Of a stretch of DNA of 64,000 nt, positions 32,434-38,342 are shown piece by piece. Below the pieces are notes generated by a model that ran no database searches, was not told the origin of the DNA, and worked only from the letters and a program-made list of their open reading frames with translations. Source of the DNA: a virus; the IMG/VR virus record IMGVR_UViG_3300017963_000266, positions 5,993 through 69,992 of that record; one strand, written 5' to 3'. The translations under genes and the position numbers were made by a program. Each line of letters opens with the position of its first letter. The first letter of the stretch is position 1.

Positions 32434-32626
32434 ACTTTCCACCCTTGCTAGTTAAGTGATAATCCCAAGATGCAACAATCAAGACTACAATCAGCCAGAA
32501 AAAAGCAGCAAAAAGGAATCGCCATGGGGACACATCCCCCCAAAGAATAGCCAGCCAGACTGACGCGACAAAAGACAGCCATGCTGTCACATTCATTATT
32601 TTCAGTACATAATTCTTTGGGGTCAC
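32426..32626 (-). CDS. Small 2-TM membrane protein
   Basis: 66 aa with two hydrophobic helices. Confidence 0.6.
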   Translation of the reverse strand: MTPKNYVLKIMNVTAWLSFVASVWLAILWGDVSPWRFLFAAFFWLIVVLIVASWDYHLTSKGGKYD

Positions 32627-33318
32627 AATTTTCGCCTCTTGTAAGGTTGTATCTTAGCATTGGTTTCTGGTCTGAATTGCCCCCCAAAAAGACCCCTGGT
32701 ACCAGCTTCTTTGTGCCAGATATATTCCCCAATTGGAAAGTTTGAAACTGTCCAACCATAATCTGGCACCTTTTTCATAATCTCAATTGCTGGGGCACCC
32801 CCTTCGGTATACCTGGCAGGCATTAGAGCCAGTTTGGAAATGTCAACCATACAGGCATAGGGATGAATATACTTAACAGCAGCTTCAGGATAAATTTCAG
32901 GATAAATAGTCTTGTAGGCAATACCAGCCTGGCTAACATATCTTAACCAACCGATTGCAAAAAGGTCCTGGTCTTGTTCAAAGGCTGCTATCATATTTTC
33001 AACCGCGCCCCCCTTCTTGACCCTGGTATCAGAGTCTAGTAAGAAAGCGTAAGTTGCCCCCATTGCCCAACCAAAGCCAATTCCCTGGTTCAAAGCTGGG
33101 CCATGATATATATTCTCGGGATTCTTGACCAGTCCGGCAATCTTGCCCTGATTGCTTAATTCATTCAGGACTTTGATAGAGTCCTGGCAGCCCCCATTAT
33201 CAACAACAATATGGGGAATCTTTGGGTAGTAATTGAACCAAGATTCAACACAGGTCTTAACCAGGTCTGGGGTCCTAAAGTTGACCGTAACACAACAGAC
33301 AGAACCAGTTCTTATCAT
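32623..33318 (-). CDS. GT2 glycosyltransferase
   Basis: VTVNFRT, VVDNGG, NIYHGPALNQG, LLDSD. Confidence 0.85.
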   Translation of the reverse strand: MIRTGSVCCVTVNFRTPDLVKTCVESWFNYYPKIPHIVVDNGGCQDSIKVLNELSNQGKIAGLVKNPENIYHGPALNQGIGFGWAMGATYAFLLDSDTRVKKGGAVENMIAAFEQDQDLFAIGWLRYVSQAGIAYKTIYPEIYPEAAVKYIHPYACMVDISKLALMPARYTEGGAPAIEIMKKVPDYGWTVSNFPIGEYIWHKEAGTRGLFGGQFRPETNAKIQPYKRRKL

Positions 33319-33359
33319 TAATTAATCAACCTTAATCAAGAAATAATAATCAACCATAA

Positions 33360-34148
33360 TCAACCTAAAGAACGAAAATTAAGGGGATAATCAAATCTCA
33401 AGAAAAAGTCCATGTTATACTTTTCAACTGCAAGTATTTCTTCTGGGGTTAAATGGTCTTTATAGTGCCCACTGGTGCCATGCACAACCTGAGGCACAAC
33501 CGACAGATGTCTTTTTTCACTTTCCAAGGGCCTGTTGTATTCTTGCCCTTTCCTGGCGTTGATCTTTTGGGGGGTATAACGGGCTGCTATTTCCTGGGCC
33601 TTTTCCTGGGTCAGATTAATTCTTAGGTGCTTCGCGATTCCCATGGCCTCAGTTGCAAGGTCCTGGGTAAATGTCTCAAACTTGGACCAGTAAGTCAAGG
33701 GCCACAGATTACACCATTTTTCCAGATCACCTAACCACTTGGGGAAATCCTGTGATGCAACCTTGATACCGTCCCATGGTTCAGTTTCCCTTTTGCCCCC
33801 TTGCCTGCTTAGGGTCCTGGTTTTCATACTGGTCAAGATGTCAAAGGGATTGCGTATACTGACCACACCCAGTAACCTGCCTTGCTGGTGATAGACTTTG
33901 CCATAAGATTCTTTTCTTTTTAGATTGTCATGGGTGTCATAATAATAGAGCCAGATGGGAGCAAAGACTTTGCAAACAATGTAGGTTGCATCATAGTTGT
34001 CATATTTCTGCAAAGCCCCTTCAGTATGGTACCCAATGCCCAGACCCAGGCCCGACTCTTCAACAATGTCCCTGGTAATCTGATATTGGGTTGATGATGC
34101 TGTCCTATAGGTACCAGCTACACAAACTAGAACAGGTCTATATGTCAC
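33360..34148 (-). CDS. Sulfotransferase-like protein
   Basis: AGTYRTASSTQY (PAPS loop-like), RNPFDILTS, GTSGHYKDHLT. Confidence 0.7.
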   Translation of the reverse strand: MTYRPVLVCVAGTYRTASSTQYQITRDIVEESGLGLGIGYHTEGALQKYDNYDATYIVCKVFAPIWLYYYDTHDNLKRKESYGKVYHQQGRLLGVVSIRNPFDILTSMKTRTLSRQGGKRETEPWDGIKVASQDFPKWLGDLEKWCNLWPLTYWSKFETFTQDLATEAMGIAKHLRINLTQEKAQEIAARYTPQKINARKGQEYNRPLESEKRHLSVVPQVVHGTSGHYKDHLTPEEILAVEKYNMDFFLRFDYPLNFRSLG

Positions 34149-34825
34149 TATTTCTTACCTGCTTTCTTTGATTTGGCTGCATCAGTCCAGTTTTCTGGGT
34201 CAACATTATCAATAACCCAATTCACCCCCTGGGGTTGCCCCTTATAATAATAATTAGTGTGAGGCATCACCATTTCCTTTGTACTTAAAAAGACCCCTTT
34301 TACGTTGTGTGCAACCCTGCCACTTCCCCATATTTCTGTTTTCCATGGGTCCTCAGATTCCCTTAATAGATTCATCAAGGTTTCACGTTCCCATATGCCA
34401 GGCTGTAAGGAAAGGCAATATCTTTTTCTTTTATCTATTCTGCCAAAGCCTGGTTCTGGATAATCAAATTGGGGTGGGGGCATAGGCCTTAATCTACAAT
34501 GGGCAATTCCCCCATTGGAATCAACGCATAGTTCAGCAGCCCTTTGCACAACTGGGGCATTAACATCTTTCAGCAGGTAATCAGACATCATAAACAAAAG
34601 GTGAGAGTCATCGTAATATTGCCTGAGGAATGTTTTCAATCGCCAGCCAAAGGCAATGTCAGGCCTGTCCCCCAGATAATAGACTGTTCTGTTAACCTGC
34701 AACTTTTTTGAATTGGTAACAAAGATCACTTCCCAGGGGCAGTCAGGCCAGACCTTTTTCAACCTGTCGTCAAAAGCTCTGCAAGTATCAGCGTATAGGT
34801 CACAACTGATAACAACTATTTTCAT
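34148..34825 (-). CDS. GT-A fold glycosyltransferase-like protein
   Basis: VISCDLY..WPDCP, SDYLL, SLQPGIWER..PWKTE. Confidence 0.6.
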   Translation of the reverse strand: MKIVVISCDLYADTCRAFDDRLKKVWPDCPWEVIFVTNSKKLQVNRTVYYLGDRPDIAFGWRLKTFLRQYYDDSHLLFMMSDYLLKDVNAPVVQRAAELCVDSNGGIAHCRLRPMPPPQFDYPEPGFGRIDKRKRYCLSLQPGIWERETLMNLLRESEDPWKTEIWGSGRVAHNVKGVFLSTKEMVMPHTNYYYKGQPQGVNWVIDNVDPENWTDAAKSKKAGKK

Positions 34826-35007
34826 CCTTTTTCCTTTTGTGGTGCAAGGTCCATTTTTTCAACAGTGTCAGAAAACCGTATGGCAGCCCTTAGCATATGT
34901 CCAGCCTGGGCTGCCATACTGCGATTCTGTTCCCTTGCTAATTTAACCAGTCTTTCTTTAGTTGCCTGATCAATTACTATTGTGATTCTTGCTTGTTCTT
35001 TCGTCAA
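34822..35007 (-). CDS. Ribbon-helix-helix (Arc/CopG-like) regulator
   Basis: RITIVID..KERLVKLAREQNRSMA; TTG start after AAGGGG. Confidence 0.75.
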   Translation of the reverse strand: MTKEQARITIVIDQATKERLVKLAREQNRSMAAQAGHMLRAAIRFSDTVEKMDLAPQKEKG

Positions 35008-35032
35008 CTTAATCAGTCTTCCCCTTTACTAG

Positions 35033-35280
35033 CTTACAATCCACATTCCTGTGAACTACCCGTTGCAACACTGTTTTGTCGAGTTGTCTGCCACCTTACA
35101 GTCCACACTCCCGCGAACTACCCGTTGCAACGTCTAATAAAACAAACTGGGGGAATAATCCACTGTCTTTTACAGTCCACATTCCTGTGAACTACCCGTT
35201 GCAACTAGATAACCCTATCCTGCCATACTGTTTCCAAGTCCAATTTACAGTCCACATTCCTGTGAACTACCCGTTGCAAC
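35033..35280 (-). CRISPR. Mini CRISPR array: four 37-bp repeats, three spacers (25, 37, 38 bp)
   Basis: Repeats at 35033-35069, 35095-35131, 35169-35205, 35244-35280; minus-strand consensus GTTGCAACGGGTAGTTCACAGGAATGTGGACTGTAA(A/G); spacers unique. Confidence 0.95.
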
Positions 35281-35500
35281 ACCAATATCCAGGGTAGCAT
35301 TACAGGAATGGTCCACTAGATATTGAGTTGCAACGGGTCTGCACAATTGACCAGTTCCGCAAATCGAATTTTGCCACAAAAGTGGGGTGTATTTGCGAAA
35401 CTGATTGTACTTTGCCGATTCTCACTGATACTGCCGGTAGTGGTGACGGCAGGCCAGGTAAGTTGGCCCCTACACCTACACCAGCGTAAGCTGGTGATGG
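35281..35500 (-). ncRNA. Putative omegaRNA/tracrRNA-like scaffold overlapping the nuclease 3' end
   Basis: Anti-repeats at 35327-35338 (12/12) and 35292-35310; hairpins at ~35341-35410, 35431-35452, 35452-35468, 35479-35496. Confidence 0.7.
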
Positions 35501-36667
35501 TGATACTTTGTTAAGAATATTGAATGCCCCGTTTACATCCGAGTTTACTACAACTCCGCATTGCTGGCAGGTTAGTAGCCCCCTTGGACTACGACGACCC
35601 ACCTGTCCACACAGATGACAACACTTTGATGTGTTACGTTCACTTACTGCTATTGTCTCAATTCCAACCTCCTCTGCTTTGTATTCAAGCTGGCGTCTTA
35701 TTTCAGCAAAGGGCCAATTGTGCAACTTTTGGTTCCCTTTTTTGCCGTGGTTCGCCTGTTCTCTGATGCCCCTCAGGTCACCCAGGACAAGTGTCCTTAT
35801 CTGGCGGACAATACATTCATTAATGATATGTCGAGTCAGATTGTGGACAGCCAGCTTCTGAATATTGCCTGCCTTGCATCGATACCTCTTGAAATTCTCA
35901 GATTGTCTACTTTCGGCTTTGCCCTTTTGCCAATTTTTAGGCTTGCAAGCTTTAGCCTGCTTTTGATGCCATTGATTACTAGCCAATAACCCTTTGCCAG
36001 AATACAGAATGCTTTCACCATTCTGGAAAGCAACAGCAGCCATATTGATAATTCCCAGGTCAACCCCAGCTACACCATTGCCTGATACTTTGTTATTTGC
36101 CTCAAGATTAATAATAGCATCGCCCGAACCATCAGGATGCAACCGAATAAGTTTAATGTCCCGCATTTTGACACCAGGCCTAATCCGCAACCTGACCAGG
36201 GCATGTCTATCTTTGATGTGCCTACCAAGGACAGTCAAATGGTACGTCCAATCACCTTTTGACCTGGCATTGCGCCCAACCTCAAAATAAAGCAACCGCC
36301 CTTCTTTGGTGTAGCGTGGCGGTCTGGCTTTTGGGTTAGTTTTGATATTGCTAAACCAGGACCGCATTGCAATGTCAAAATCTTTGATAGTGTAAGAAGA
36401 ACAGCGGTCACTTAAATCTTTAGCACTCCAATGATCTTTAATAACCTTTTGCATCCCAAAGTTGCCCAAATATTTTATCCCTCGCGCGTGGGGCACATTG
36501 CGCCTGTAAACTTCCCAACTGTCGCCCCGCCTGCGCCGCAATTTTTCATTATAGCCAAACTGGTGCCACCGTAATTGATTCCATAGGTGCCGAGATAATT
36601 CATGGCCTTGCGTTAAAATATCAGCCCCTTCAATGACCTTGTAAGTAATCTTTACGGTCCGTTTCAT
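35300..36667 (-). CDS. tnpB: CRISPR-associated TnpB/Cas12f-like RNA-guided nuclease with rearranged RuvC-II
   Basis: RuvC-I GVDLG; RuvC-II LGDL with alternative Glu in VSERNTS; Zn finger CHLC..CQQC; RuvC-III SDVNGAFNI; likely start MKRTVK (455 aa). Confidence 0.92.
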   Translation of the reverse strand: MKRTVKITYKVIEGADILTQGHELSRHLWNQLRWHQFGYNEKLRRRRGDSWEVYRRNVPHARGIKYLGNFGMQKVIKDHWSAKDLSDRCSSYTIKDFDIAMRSWFSNIKTNPKARPPRYTKEGRLLYFEVGRNARSKGDWTYHLTVLGRHIKDRHALVRLRIRPGVKMRDIKLIRLHPDGSGDAIINLEANNKVSGNGVAGVDLGIINMAAVAFQNGESILYSGKGLLASNQWHQKQAKACKPKNWQKGKAESRQSENFKRYRCKAGNIQKLAVHNLTRHIINECIVRQIRTLVLGDLRGIREQANHGKKGNQKLHNWPFAEIRRQLEYKAEEVGIETIAVSERNTSKCCHLCGQVGRRSPRGLLTCQQCGVVVNSDVNGAFNILNKVSPSPAYAGVGVGANLPGLPSPLPAVSVRIGKVQSVSQIHPTFVAKFDLRNWSIVQTRCNSISSGPFL

Positions 36668-36705
36668 TATTCTTGCCTGTTTAAGATTCTCGTTTCCATG
36701 CGCCC

Positions 36706-36762
36706 AATATACATTAAAATGCATCATTTTGCAACACTTACAATGCAAGTGAACCTTAAAAT
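36706..36762 (-). promoter_or_regulatory. sigma70-like promoter of tnpB with upstream AACCTTAAAAT box
   Basis: TTGCAA-N17-TATATT (36734-36706); box at 36752-36762. Confidence 0.6.
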
Positions 36763-36795
36763 TCCCTAAAAAGGCCCCTAAAAAAGCTCAGAATC

Positions 36796-36840
36796 AAAAG
36801 AACCCCTAACCACCATTAGGGTTAGGGGTCCTTTTTTATT
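36796..36840. terminator. Intrinsic (probably bidirectional) terminator after capsid gene
   Basis: ACCCCTAAC/GTTAGGGGT stem with A-run before and T-run after. Confidence 0.8.
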
Positions 36841-36863
36841 TGACAGCAGCTGTTTAAGTTAGA

Positions 36864-38342
36864 TTAGAGCCAGACAGCGTAGTCTGAACTGGGGGTCCTG
36901 GCCGATACACCACCATTAACCCAGTGGGTATTGTCAGGATCATAATCCCTCAGGTGCTGTAACGGGCTGTACTTGACATGTTCAATCTTGCCAGCCAGCT
37001 GAGGAGTCCGCAGAACAACCCGCTGTTCTGACTTAAGACTAAACTTGTAACACCATTTAGTTTGCTCAACTGCCCAGCTGAAGATACCACGGTCAGTCCA
37101 AAAGTCCTCGCGTCCTTGCATCAGGGCAATGTCAGCCCCAGCTTCGCGGTAGTCCAGATATTCCATATAGGTTGCCGGGAAGTTTCCTGCTACCCGCATA
37201 GGAATAAAATAGATACTGCTGGCGTATTCCCCAGCGTTAAGATTACTGGAGTCATTGGTCGCGTTATGCTCATAGATGCAGGTATCGGTGACAACCGGAT
37301 AAGTACGCCCATTAACATCAATGGTCATGCCGCGCCGCATCCTGTCACGGTCACTGATATTTTCTCGCCCATCAGTCAGGACTCTGGCATCGCCGCCGAT
37401 GCTGGTGCAACGGTTCGTGTTATACTTGCATGGCCAGCAGGCAGTCAATTCATACCACAGCTGGGGACGCATGGCCCAGACCCATTGACCAGGTAGCATG
37501 CCGGTATCATCAGCCAGGGTGTAGATGAAATATTCCAGCATTGACATGTACTCAACAATGTCCTGGGTTGACCCACAAACGTCAGCATACTGGAAATCTT
37601 TCACATCACTATCCAGACTGGCACAGGCAGTGTTGGTGTCAGCATCAACCTGGCCTGTGGCAATCTGGTTGTCTAAGCCAGGAAATTCCTTGTACCCACC
37701 TCCAGGGTTGTTGTTGCTGGGGCTGCCAGTCCAGACATGGCTGCAAAGTTTCCTTTCCATCCGAACCGCCGCACTGACCATTTCAGACATAGTGATAAGG
37801 TTCAAGATTTGGGACTGATTCAGGCCTCTGGGGTACAGATCAGTCATTCCAAGAACCTCGCCCACCAGCCTCAGGTCAGTAAAGTCCCCACGGTTGACCC
37901 GTAACATAACCTTGTCCATTTCAATGGTACGAGTATCACGCGCCACGCGCCCAAACTGGGCCTGCAAATTACAGGCCTTGACAAAGCCGTCTGGGGCATC
38001 ATCACAAGGCTGCAATGGTTCTGCCCCCTGGTCATCACTGTAGCCAGTCAGGGCCCCATACCTGGGGTCTTCATTAACTGATCCCATCTTAGGTAGCATA
38101 GTAGCCAGGCCATGGGGTCTAACATGGGTTGTGATAATCTCACGTTCCAGACCTGGTGTGCTGAAAATGCCGGTACCACCATGCAAGAACGTGTTAGTTG
38201 CGGTACTGGCTGGGGCTTTGGTTGCCAGCCCCTGGTCTTTGGCAACCTGGCCTTGATAATGTTCCATCAAGGAAATCAGTTTTTCCTGGTTTGCCGCAAC
38301 CTGTTTGATAACGTCAATGTCTTGAAAATTGATTTCTGCCAT
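36864..38342 (-). CDS. Major capsid protein (putative)
   Basis: Follows protease/scaffold, strong AGGAG SD, terminator behind it; KEFPGLDNQI motif. Confidence 0.75.
   Translation of the reverse strand: MAEINFQDIDVIKQVAANQEKLISLMEHYQGQVAKDQGLATKAPASTATNTFLHGGTGIFSTPGLEREIITTHVRPHGLATMLPKMGSVNEDPRYGALTGYSDDQGAEPLQPCDDAPDGFVKACNLQAQFGRVARDTRTIEMDKVMLRVNRGDFTDLRLVGEVLGMTDLYPRGLNQSQILNLITMSEMVSAAVRMERKLCSHVWTGSPSNNNPGGGYKEFPGLDNQIATGQVDADTNTACASLDSDVKDFQYADVCGSTQDIVEYMSMLEYFIYTLADDTGMLPGQWVWAMRPQLWYELTACWPCKYNTNRCTSIGGDARVLTDGRENISDRDRMRRGMTIDVNGRTYPVVTDTCIYEHNATNDSSNLNAGEYASSIYFIPMRVAGNFPATYMEYLDYREAGADIALMQGREDFWTDRGIFSWAVEQTKWCYKFSLKSEQRVVLRTPQLAGKIEHVKYSPLQHLRDYDPDNTHWVNGGVSARTPSSDYAVWL

What the first reader, a model, noticed from the sequence alone, without database searches (positions are those of the whole stretch)
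35244..35500. Scaffold RNA with two anti-repeats fused in cis to the first repeat (omegaRNA/tracrRNA intermediate)
Seen on the minus strand: ACCCGTTGCAAC-T-CAATATCTAG...CTGGATATTG-GT-GTTGCAACGGGT. A 12-nt anti-repeat (35327-35338) plus a further ~10-bp stem closes on the 5' end of the first repeat. Inside that loop, CATTCCTGT-AATG-CTACCC (35292-35310) is complementary to the repeat's GGGTAG..ACAGGAATG, giving a pseudoknot or alternative pairing. Four more hairpins lie at 35341-35496, within the ~70-codon tail after DVNGAFNIL. Known: TnpB omegaRNAs overlap the gene's 3' end. Inference: scaffold + repeat 1 + spacer is a natural single guide, and distal repeats could pair in trans as with a tracrRNA.
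Basis: partly seen in the sequence, partly recalled or inferred. Interest (0 to 1): 0.88.

Follow-up and report, generated by a model that had tools for sequence, protein, structure and literature searches.

The report
Phage mini-CRISPR with gene-embedded guide scaffold
A phage carries a very small TnpB-like CRISPR nuclease whose guide-RNA scaffold is written inside the end of its own gene and runs straight into a four-repeat array; this is a good example of an already described transposon-to-CRISPR intermediate, not a new principle.

Summary
On the minus strand, a TnpB-family ORF (35300-36748) is followed by four 37-nt repeats. The last ~70 codons of the ORF encode a structured RNA. In 13 related loci, 91% of cells pair, against 35-41% when partners are slid, and no shuffle reached the observed covariation score. 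The 12-nt anti-repeat (35327-35338) pairs with the 5' end of the repeat and shows compensatory changes in close relatives.

Two details are wrong or local:
- The conserved second contact is a pseudoknot, CUUAC (35458-35462) with the repeat's 3' GUAAG.
- The 10-bp extension stem is specific to this window.

Relatives range from an unsplit omegaRNA-like locus, through single-repeat loci, to arrays of 2-5 repeats. The nuclease has Gly in place of the RuvC-II Glu and an invariant Glu 47 residues later. The distal tail is predicted to be folded, so it may not be dispensable.

The concept is already published (TranC, Cas12n, V-U* groups). I read this as a new member of a known kind. No RNA data and no spacer targets were found.

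The parts
35300..36748 (-). Effector ORF (P0001, 482 aa as listed). The likely real start is Met28 at 36667, because relatives align from about residue 28. It belongs to the TnpB family. D230, E370 and D404 are invariant. G323 sits where the RuvC-II Glu normally is.
36706..36734 (-). Promoter-like site (TTGCAA-17-TATATT) just upstream of the ORF. This is only a consensus match. No promoter-like site was found inside the gene ahead of the scaffold.
35473..35502 (-). Scaffold helix P0 (35499-35502 with 35473-35476) enclosing hairpin P0b (35490-35496 with 35479-35485).
   Evidence: helix 93.3% paired, 4 of 11 pairs with changes on both sides
35451..35469 (-). Scaffold hairpin P1. Its loop carries the pseudoknot strand CUUAC at 35458-35462.
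   Evidence: 97.4% paired, 5 of 6 pairs compensatory
35414..35450 (-). Scaffold helix P2 (35447-35450 with 35414-35417, and 35440-35443 with 35421-35425).
   Evidence: 100% and 97.9% paired, 7 of 8 pairs compensatory
35358..35397 (-). Scaffold helix P3, CGCAAAU (35391-35397) with AUUUGCG (35358-35364). It is nearly invariant. The same bases encode the conserved peptide ..PTFVAKFDLRN..
   Evidence: (97.8% paired, no compensatory change)
35327..35338 (-). Anti-repeat 1, ACCCGUUGCAAC. It pairs with repeat nt 1-12.
   Evidence: 76.9% paired, 4 pairs compensatory; stronger than shuffles in 7 of 13 loci
35281..35326 (-). Connector hairpin between anti-repeat 1 and repeat 1.
35244..35280 (-). Repeat 1 (37 nt). 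Its 5' 12 nt pair with anti-repeat 1. It has an internal hairpin (35262-35268 with 35249-35255). Its 3' GUAAA (35244-35248) is the pseudoknot strand.
35033..35243 (-). Rest of the mini-array: spacer 1 (35206-35243, 38 nt), repeat 2 (35169-35205), spacer 2 (35132-35168, 37 nt), repeat 3 (35095-35131), spacer 3 (35070-35094, 25 nt), repeat 4 (35033-35069).

Best explanation
This is a stand-alone, phage-borne, TnpB-derived type V-like CRISPR module, made up of:
- a nuclease of about 455 aa;
- a guide scaffold of about 175 nt (35327-35502) written inside the last ~70 codons of that nuclease's own ORF;
- a variable connector hairpin;
- a four-repeat array.

Likely mechanism, inferred unless marked shown:
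1. The gene, scaffold and array are transcribed together from the promoter upstream of the gene.
2. The scaffold folds into P0/P0b, P1, P2 and P3 (shown by covariation).
3. It holds a repeat at two sites (pairing shown by covariation with repeat 1). Anti-repeat 1 pairs with the repeat's first 12 nt. The P1 loop CUUAC forms a pseudoknot with the repeat's last bases, GUAAG, next to the guide.
4. For repeat 1 this happens in cis, giving an omegaRNA-like natural single guide that carries spacer 1.
5. For repeats 2-4, a scaffold released from another transcript, or by cleavage in the connector, would pair in trans like a tracrRNA.
6. The nuclease presumably cuts DNA with a rearranged RuvC site (D230, relocated E370, D404).

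The tail is dual-coded. Residues 425-450 are a disordered linker whose sequence is set by RNA helices P1 and P2. Residues 451-474 are a conserved folded beta-hairpin that shares its bases with P3 and anti-repeat 1.
For: Identity of the protein:
- NF040570 guided_TnpB, 155.2 bits against a cutoff of 100.
- Pfam OrfB_IS605 plus Cas12f1-like TNB.
- The nearest folds are AsCas12f (Foldseek E 1e-20) and ISDra2 TnpB.

Phage setting:
- The record is an IMG/VR virus that CheckV rates 100% complete.
- The record has no Cas1, Cas2 or Y1 TnpA.

A conserved module:
- Of 16 homologous loci read downstream, 12 have 2-5 repeats of 37 nt starting 234-276 nt after the RuvC-III motif. Two have one repeat, one has none, and one contig ends too early.
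- The downstream genes differ from locus to locus.

RNA structure (13 loci, 49 pairs):
- 91.3% of cells pair, against 34.6-41.3% when partners are slid.
- The covariation score is 0.410 against 0.060-0.087, and 0 of 500 shuffles reach it.
- The pseudoknot is 98.5% paired. The middle pair is AU in 8 loci, UA in 4 and GC in 1, tracking repeat ends GUAAG, GAAAG and GCAAG.

Dual coding:
- Pairwise differences at codon positions 1/2/3 are .406/.313/.649 in the core and .358/.389/.475 in the tail. Periodicity is lost over P1-P2 and returns over PTFVAKFDLRNWSIV.
- AF2 gives pLDDT below 50 for residues 425-450 and 82-87 for 451-474.
- L092 keeps the whole scaffold although its ORF is frameshifted.

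Other points:
- G323 aligns with the Glu of AsCas12f 'MEDL'. Glu replaced by Gly with a compensating Glu is described for TnpB group RIIr-5 (PMC10691335, passages).
- There is only one scaffold copy in the 64-kb window.
- TnpB processing its own mRNA into omegaRNA is taken only from the title and start of the abstract of PMC10278001 in a search listing.
Against: - No RNA data: no RNA-labelled run holds the locus, so transcription, RNA ends and processing are all inferred.
- No protospacer was found for any spacer, so targeting and the PAM/TAM are unknown.
- Anti-repeat 1 beats shuffles in only 7 of 13 loci. In the alignment, 4-7 of 13 cells are unpaired at six of its 12 positions, mainly in the distant members L095, L097, L101, L102 and L006.
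- The five invariant core pairs of anti-repeat 1 lie in the palindrome GTTGCAAC and carry no information.
- P3 never shows a compensatory change.
- Covariation was measured only against repeat 1, so cis and trans use cannot be told apart.
- The promoter call is a weak consensus match: 5 sites found against 3.8 expected.
- Nuclease activity with E370 is inferred from invariance and from the literature, not from geometry.
Confidence: 0.78

Rival explanations
1. This is an ordinary dual-RNA type V system. The cis link to repeat 1 is only a processing substrate. The duplex or the connector is always cleaved, so every guide, including spacer 1, works as a separate tracrRNA plus crRNA, and no natural single guide exists.
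For: The connector varies in length (37-69 nt) and in sequence, and carries no conserved element, as expected of a disposable linker. Trans pairing is about as stable as cis pairing: -46.6 against -47.5 kcal/mol. Most relatives have several repeats that must be served in trans.
Against: Relatives with one repeat (L097, L094), and L092 with a short closed stem-loop in place of anti-repeat/repeat, can only work in cis. There is one scaffold per four repeats and no second scaffold copy in the window.
Confidence: 0.3
2. One reading: the connector segment 35292-35310 is a functional second anti-repeat that forms a pseudoknot or an alternative pairing with the middle of the repeat.
For: The complementarity exceeds chance in this window: duplex z = -4.14 with 0 of 200 shuffles, and an inverted partial repeat copy with 0 of 200. 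Some relatives also carry repeat-derived pieces in the connector: L093 5 of 200, L006 3 of 200, L095 1 of 200, and L087 a direct degenerate repeat copy with 0 of 200.
Against: Those pieces match different parts of the repeat and differ in orientation, so nothing is conserved in position. In the duplex test only 3 of 13 loci reach 3 of 200 or fewer. The pairing overlaps the target of anti-repeat 1 (repeat nt 9-12) and the covarying repeat hairpin. It is 21.8 kcal/mol worse than the minimum-free-energy fold.
Confidence: 0.1
3. The protein binds DNA but does not cut it. It would act as an RNA-guided repressor, like Cas12m, Cas12k or TldR, because the canonical RuvC-II Glu is lost.
For: G323 is invariant at the canonical Glu position. 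Two spacers have weak partial matches to neighbouring phage genes (pair I10, 14 nt at 93%; pair I5, 19 nt at 79%).
Against: D230, D404 and the alternative E370 are invariant in all 30 aligned sequences. This is the pattern described as a rearranged but probably active site (PMC10691335). Spacer 1 has no match in the window with up to 3 mismatches other than itself.
Confidence: 0.12
4. The conservation and the folding only reflect protein coding or an mRNA 3' structure, and there is no guide scaffold.
For: The ORF stays open through the scaffold in all 13 loci used for the codon test, and 29 of 30 aligned proteins carry the distal tail motif.
Against: Compensatory changes occur in 23 of 49 pairs. 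There is no codon periodicity over P1-P2. The scaffold is kept after a frameshift in L092. The pseudoknot covaries with the end of the repeat, which lies outside the ORF.
Confidence: 0.02

Closest known systems
TranC, transposon-CRISPR intermediates (Jin et al., Cell 2025). The paper is not held; it was seen only through citing papers.
   Same: A TnpB-sized effector with a short CRISPR array downstream and no adaptation genes. [quoted passage not shown] Some members are in phages; one phage member has 38-bp repeats (bioRxiv 10.64898/2026.03.27.714800).
   Different: Clade membership could not be checked because no sequences or supplements were available. LaTranC is only a weak match: phmmer E 0.0018 and Foldseek rank 39. 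Here the scaffold lies inside the ORF and the RuvC-II site is rearranged.
Cas12n (type V-N, formerly V-U4)
   Same: The tracrRNA is encoded inside the effector mRNA, in the region coding for the C-terminal tail (PMC11641405; bioRxiv section 6). The guide has three or four stem-loops followed by an anti-repeat:repeat stem.
   Different: The Cas12n tail is reported as unstructured and dispensable. Here only residues 425-450 look disordered, and 451-474 are predicted to be folded. No chain named Cas12n is among the 22 PDB sequence matches at E up to 1.
Cas12f (type V-F), especially AsCas12f
   Same: These are the closest solved structures: phmmer E 2e-16 over residues 223-411, and Foldseek E 1e-20 with query-normalised TM-score 0.49-0.53. 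Cas12f is a miniature effector with a tracrRNA that contacts the repeat at two places; that last point is recalled, not taken from a call.
   Different: About 20% identity. Cas12f keeps the canonical Glu in 'MEDL' where this protein has Gly. The Cas12f tracrRNA is sought between the gene and the array, not inside the ORF. The NCBIfam Cas12f2 model scores 84.3 against a cutoff of 450.
TnpB with omegaRNA (IS200/IS605, e.g. ISDra2)
   Same: The guide scaffold overlaps the 3' end of the gene and is followed directly by the guide. A pseudoknot is a conserved feature of the ISDra2 omegaRNA (PMC13639567). The fold is similar: 8h1j, target-normalised TM-score 0.61.
   Different: There is no TnpA in the phage. 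The guide-proximal part is repeated as an array. No Rfam family matches 33000-38000 apart from one chance miRNA hit.
RuvC-II-rearranged TnpB/Cas12 branches (RIIr groups; V-U* groups) of Altae-Tran et al. 2023, PMC10691335
   Same: The catalytic Glu is replaced by Gly with an alternative Glu. Some rearranged branches are virus-specific. There are 40 V-U* groups with arrays downstream of the gene.

Membership tests
TnpB family (NCBIfam NF040570, RNA-guided endonuclease TnpB) | Score above the curated cutoff over the full-length model | tested here: met
   155.2 bits against a cutoff of 100, model positions 12-389 of 389
TnpB family | RuvC catalytic triad D-E-D | tested here: inconclusive
   D230 and D404 are invariant. 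The canonical Glu position holds an invariant Gly323. Invariant E370 is a candidate replacement. Geometry was not examined.
IS200/IS605 or IS607 transposon | An associated TnpA (Y1 or serine recombinase) and the curated element-specific TnpB models | tested here: not met
   No Y1_Tnp in the phage record. No recombinase among 7 neighbouring ORFs. IS607_TnpB scores 61.4 against 350 and IS200_TnpB 38.9 against 425. A serine recombinase was not searched genome-wide.
Type V CRISPR-Cas (Cas12-like effector) | A RuvC/TnpB-like effector linked to a CRISPR array in evolutionarily separate relatives | tested here: met
   12 of 16 homologous loci have 2-5 repeats of 37 nt directly downstream, at 42-61% protein identity to the window
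Type V CRISPR-Cas | Spacers that match foreign DNA, or an adaptation module | tested here: not met
   No Cas1 or Cas2. No protospacer in GenBank phages, in PLSDB, or as exact 22-mers in IMG/VR.
Cas12f2 (NCBIfam NF049972) | Score above the curated cutoff | tested here: not met
   84.3 bits against a cutoff of 450
Cas12n (V-N) | tracrRNA encoded within the coding region of the effector's C-terminal tail | tested here: met
   The scaffold at 35327-35502 lies inside ORF codons 416-474
Cas12n (V-N) | Sequence relationship to Cas12n, and an unstructured dispensable tail | tested here: not met
   No Cas12n chain among the PDB matches at E up to 1. Residues 451-474 are predicted to be folded. Dispensability cannot be tested with these tools.
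TranC | The effector works with both a CRISPR RNA and a transposon-type single RNA | not testable with these tools
   Only the locus layout fits: a cis-linked first unit, plus relatives with no repeat or one repeat
TranC | Placement in one of the published clades | not tested
   The paper is not held and supplements are closed

The most novel reading that the evidence does not exclude
This phage-borne clade may belong to none of the described TranC or V-U* groups. It may preserve, in living relatives, each step from an unsplit omegaRNA (L092), through a cis-linked single repeat (L097, L094), to arrays. In it, the first unit would work unprocessed as a natural single guide while the same scaffold serves later repeats in trans. 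In addition, a folded C-terminal beta-hairpin of the protein and RNA elements P3 and anti-repeat 1 are written in the same bases, so the protein and its guide cannot evolve independently.
Probability: 0.25. Interest if true: 0.7.

Novelty: new member of a known kind. Interest (0 to 1): 0.5.

Why it matters
- The locus is a compact, self-contained RNA-guided nuclease module: about 1.7 kb including guide scaffold and array.
- Its guide architecture can be read directly from covariation. That gives a ready design for a single guide: scaffold, anti-repeat, loop, repeat, spacer.
- The clade shows no-repeat, one-repeat and multi-repeat states side by side. It therefore offers a natural test bed for the published idea that type V CRISPR arose by splitting the omegaRNA.
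- The overlap of a folded peptide with RNA helices is a clean case of dual coding.
- For phage biology, it adds a stand-alone guided nuclease with no adaptation genes whose targets are still unknown.

Tried and rejected
Searches that found nothing useful:
- Rfam scan of 33000-38000 at E up to 1: only a chance miRNA hit.
- Protein-pattern scans: the viral scan with the single protein found none, and the genome-contig scan found none.
- DNA pattern GCAARRTTNGATTTGCGNAA in viral contigs (4 hits) and genome contigs (101 hits): none of the 105 loci encodes a relative by tblastn at E 1e-5.
- GenBank phages: the best protein match is 26% identical, so there is no close named relative.

Spacer targets:
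- No match in the window for spacer 1 with up to 3 mismatches.
- GenBank phages gave only E = 1 chance hits.
- PLSDB gave none.
- Exact 22-mers of spacers 1 and 2 in IMG/VR gave none.
- Spacer 3 and the sequence after repeat 4 were covered only by the blastn queries.

RNA evidence:
- No RNA holder was listed.
- Laying the two DNA runs' contigs showed presence only, with contigs breaking at the repeats and no array variants.

Other dead ends:
- Mobility idea: L094 and L095 share both flanks. L094 simply lacks 674 nt (three spacer-repeat units plus a 144-aa ORF), so this is a deletion or insertion in one context, not a moved module.
- No accessory gene is conserved downstream. The PHROGs scan of 7 window neighbours found none. 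In the scan of 10 flank ORFs of relatives, 3 had hits, to phage replication or recombination genes.
- The outer extension of P3 (alignment columns 117-122 with 163-168) is not conserved.
Jin et al. 2025 is not held.

Full report
**What is there**

The window is part of an IMG/VR virus record of 69,992 bp that CheckV rates 100% complete.

On the minus strand, an ORF at 35300-36748 (P0001) is followed by four direct repeats. In the register shared with relatives they are 37 nt long, at 35244-35280, 35169-35205, 35095-35131 and 35033-35069. The spacers are 38, 37 and 25 nt.

The protein belongs to the TnpB family:
- NF040570 scores 155.2 bits against a cutoff of 100.
- Pfam finds OrfB_IS605 plus Cas12f1-like TNB.
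- The closest solved chains are AsCas12f (phmmer E 2e-16; Foldseek E 1e-20, query-normalised TM-score 0.49-0.53) and ISDra2 TnpB (8h1j, target-normalised TM-score 0.61).
- The models for Cas12f2, IS607 TnpB and IS200 TnpB all fall far below their cutoffs.

The phage record has no Cas1, Cas2 or Y1 TnpA.

**Check of the observation**

- The piece 35244-35340 folds into the anti-repeat/extension stem plus a repeat hairpin at -47.5 kcal/mol, z = -7.13, with 0 of 200 shuffles as good.
- The upstream 35339-35505 folds at -63.5 kcal/mol, z = -4.97, 0 of 200.

So the structure is well beyond chance in this one sequence.

**The family**

A search of 5.8 billion proteins gave 129 hits, of which 120 were listed. 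P0002-P0108 have E of 1e-66 or better at 36-70% identity. The E-value then drops sharply to 2e-38. This is a discrete clade, nearly all from metagenomes.

I aligned 30 of the 120 listed proteins, picked by hand down the ranking. In that alignment:
- D230, E370 and D404 are invariant.
- The position of the RuvC-II Glu holds an invariant Gly323.
- In the phmmer alignment, G323 faces the Glu of AsCas12f 'MEDL' and E370 faces a Pro.

Replacement of this Glu by Gly, with a compensating Glu elsewhere, is described for the TnpB group RIIr-5 (PMC10691335, passages read).

DNA was obtained for 21 homologous loci: L006 from IMG/VR and L086-L105 from metagenomes. Sixteen could be read downstream of the RuvC-III motif:
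- Twelve have 2-5 repeats of 37 nt with a period of 72-76. These start 234-276 nt after the motif, begin GTTGCA and end TGTAAG, TGAAAG, TGCAAG or TGAAGG. L102 and L103 are the same sequence.
- L094 and L097 have one repeat.
- L092 has none.
- The L091 contig ends too early.

The genes downstream differ from locus to locus. The gene, scaffold and array therefore form a conserved stand-alone module.

**The RNA**

I aligned the region from just after DVNGAFNIL to the end of repeat 1 in 13 distinct loci (A2). RNAalifold predicted 37 pairs, 17 of them compensatory.

I then counted a structure that I named, including a pseudoknot (49 pairs):
- 91.3% of cells pair, against 34.6-41.3% with partners slid by 1-3 columns.
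- The covariation score is 0.410 against 0.060-0.087.
- 0 of 500 shuffles reach any of the five measures.

Helix by helix:

| Helix | Cells paired | Compensatory pairs |
|---|---|---|
| P1 | 97.4% | 5 of 6 |
| P2 | 100% and 97.9% | 7 of 8 |
| P3 | 97.8% | none (nearly invariant) |
| Repeat hairpin | 86.8% | 4 of 7 |
| Anti-repeat 1 : repeat | 76.9% | 4 of 12 |

Adding P0b gives 93.3% for the P0 helix.

The new point is the pseudoknot. The P1 loop CUUAC (35458-35462) pairs with the last five bases of the repeat. It is 98.5% paired, and its middle pair is AU in 8 loci, UA in 4 and GC in 1. Loop CUUAC goes with GUAAG, CUUUC with GAAAG, and CUUGC with GCAAG. In this window, repeats 1 and 2 end in GUAAA, so there the fifth pair is a mismatch.

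A pseudoknot is a conserved feature of the ISDra2 omegaRNA (PMC13639567, passage).

**What does not hold**

- The 10-bp extension stem is specific to this window. The connector is 37-69 nt long and folds differently in each locus.
It beats shuffles here, but in the duplex test only 3 of 13 loci reach 3 of 200 or fewer.
- The repeat-derived pieces seen in other connectors match other parts of the repeat or lie in the direct orientation.
- Anti-repeat 1 itself is weaker than it looks. It beats shuffles in 7 of 13 loci, and its invariant core lies in the palindrome GTTGCAAC.

**The tail of the protein**

Across the 13 loci, pairwise differences at codon positions 1/2/3 are .406/.313/.649 in 373 core columns and .358/.389/.475 in 58 tail columns. 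Periodicity is absent over VGANLPGL..RIGKVSQI, which covers P1 and P2. It returns over HPTFVAKFDLRNWSIV.

AlphaFold2 with the 30-sequence alignment gives a mean pLDDT of 79.8. It is below 50 at residues 425-450 and 475-482, and 82-87 at 451-474, with two strands.

The frame stays open through the scaffold in all 13 loci. It is also kept across in-frame insertions in P0011-P0014 and P0020. L092, however, is frameshifted yet keeps the scaffold.

I read this as dual coding: an RNA-constrained disordered linker followed by a real peptide element. That makes 'dispensable tail' doubtful.

**How it probably works**

This part is inferred. A promoter-like site lies at 36706-36734, and no such site lies inside the gene (weak evidence). 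There is one scaffold copy in the window.

The transcript would carry the gene, the scaffold and the array. TnpB is reported to process its own mRNA into omegaRNA (PMC10278001; title and start of abstract in a search listing only).

Repeat 1 is held in cis by anti-repeat 1 and the pseudoknot. Repeats 2-4 carry the same two sites and could be held in trans (-46.6 kcal/mol).

In L092, a short closed stem-loop stands where anti-repeat and repeat pair in the others, followed by a hairpin and GUAAG. That is the unsplit form.

**Comparison with what is known**

- The split of the transposon RNA into tracrRNA and crRNA, and the name TranC, come from Jin et al. 2025. That paper is not held and was seen only via citing texts.
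- A tracrRNA inside the tail-coding region is reported for Cas12n.
- Forty V-U* groups with downstream arrays, and virus-specific rearranged branches, are in PMC10691335 (sections read).
- Searches for a cis-fused natural single guide in type V systems found only the Cas9 tracr-L work.

**What is missing**

- No RNA-labelled sequencing run holds the locus.
- No spacer target was found.
- No PAM/TAM is known.
- No activity has been shown.

**Verdict**

This is a real and well-supported guide scaffold in a phage mini-CRISPR. It is a new member of a known kind, and the identity of the second anti-repeat is corrected.

Noticed in passing
L092:2128-2400: In this relative (protein P0032) a frameshift just after KVS truncates the tail, yet the whole scaffold is kept. 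The anti-repeat/repeat pair is replaced by a short closed stem-loop followed by a hairpin and GUAAG. This is an unsplit omegaRNA-like form with no array. An assembly error cannot be excluded.
   Followed up: partly
L094:3984 compared with L095:1949-2621: The two loci are 99.8% identical over the gene, scaffold and repeat 1. L094 lacks 674 nt that hold three spacer-repeat units and a 144-aa ORF. The downstream gene, a DnaC-like helicase loader, is shared at 97% identity.
   Followed up: yes
L086:3823-3922: A second, partial match to the scaffold HMM lies about 2.2 kb downstream of the first module on the same contig. It may be a second module cut off by the end of the locus.
   Followed up: no
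alignment A1, proteins P0011, P0012, P0014: These three relatives have lost all four zinc-finger cysteines that are nearly invariant elsewhere (C377, C380, C394, C397). They also carry a short in-frame insertion before the tail.
   Followed up: no
alignment A1, P0020; L091:3679-4006: An in-frame insertion of about 50 residues, predicted to be helical and charged, lies between the RuvC-III motif and the start of the tail/scaffold. The frame is restored before KVSP.
   Followed up: no
window 35095-35131 (repeat 3): Repeat 3 differs from the others by three A-to-G changes. Two lie in the 5' arm of the hairpin and keep it paired through G-U wobbles, and one lies in the loop.
   Followed up: partly
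window 35220-35233 with 34873-34886; 35148-35166 with 34496-34514: Spacers 1 and 2 have partial matches to the two genes just downstream (14 nt at 93%, and 19 nt at 79%). These are probably chance. No match with up to 3 mismatches exists for spacer 1.
   Followed up: partly
window 34822-35007 (-), 33360-34148 (-), 32623-33318 (-): Directly after the array lies a 61-aa ORF with weak ribbon-helix-helix matches, below the Pfam cutoffs. A sulfotransferase-domain gene and a family 2 glycosyltransferase gene follow. These are unusual cargo for a phage.
   Followed up: partly
window 36802-36829: A bidirectional terminator-like hairpin separates the upstream 492-aa ORF from the promoter-like site of the nuclease gene.
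   Followed up: no
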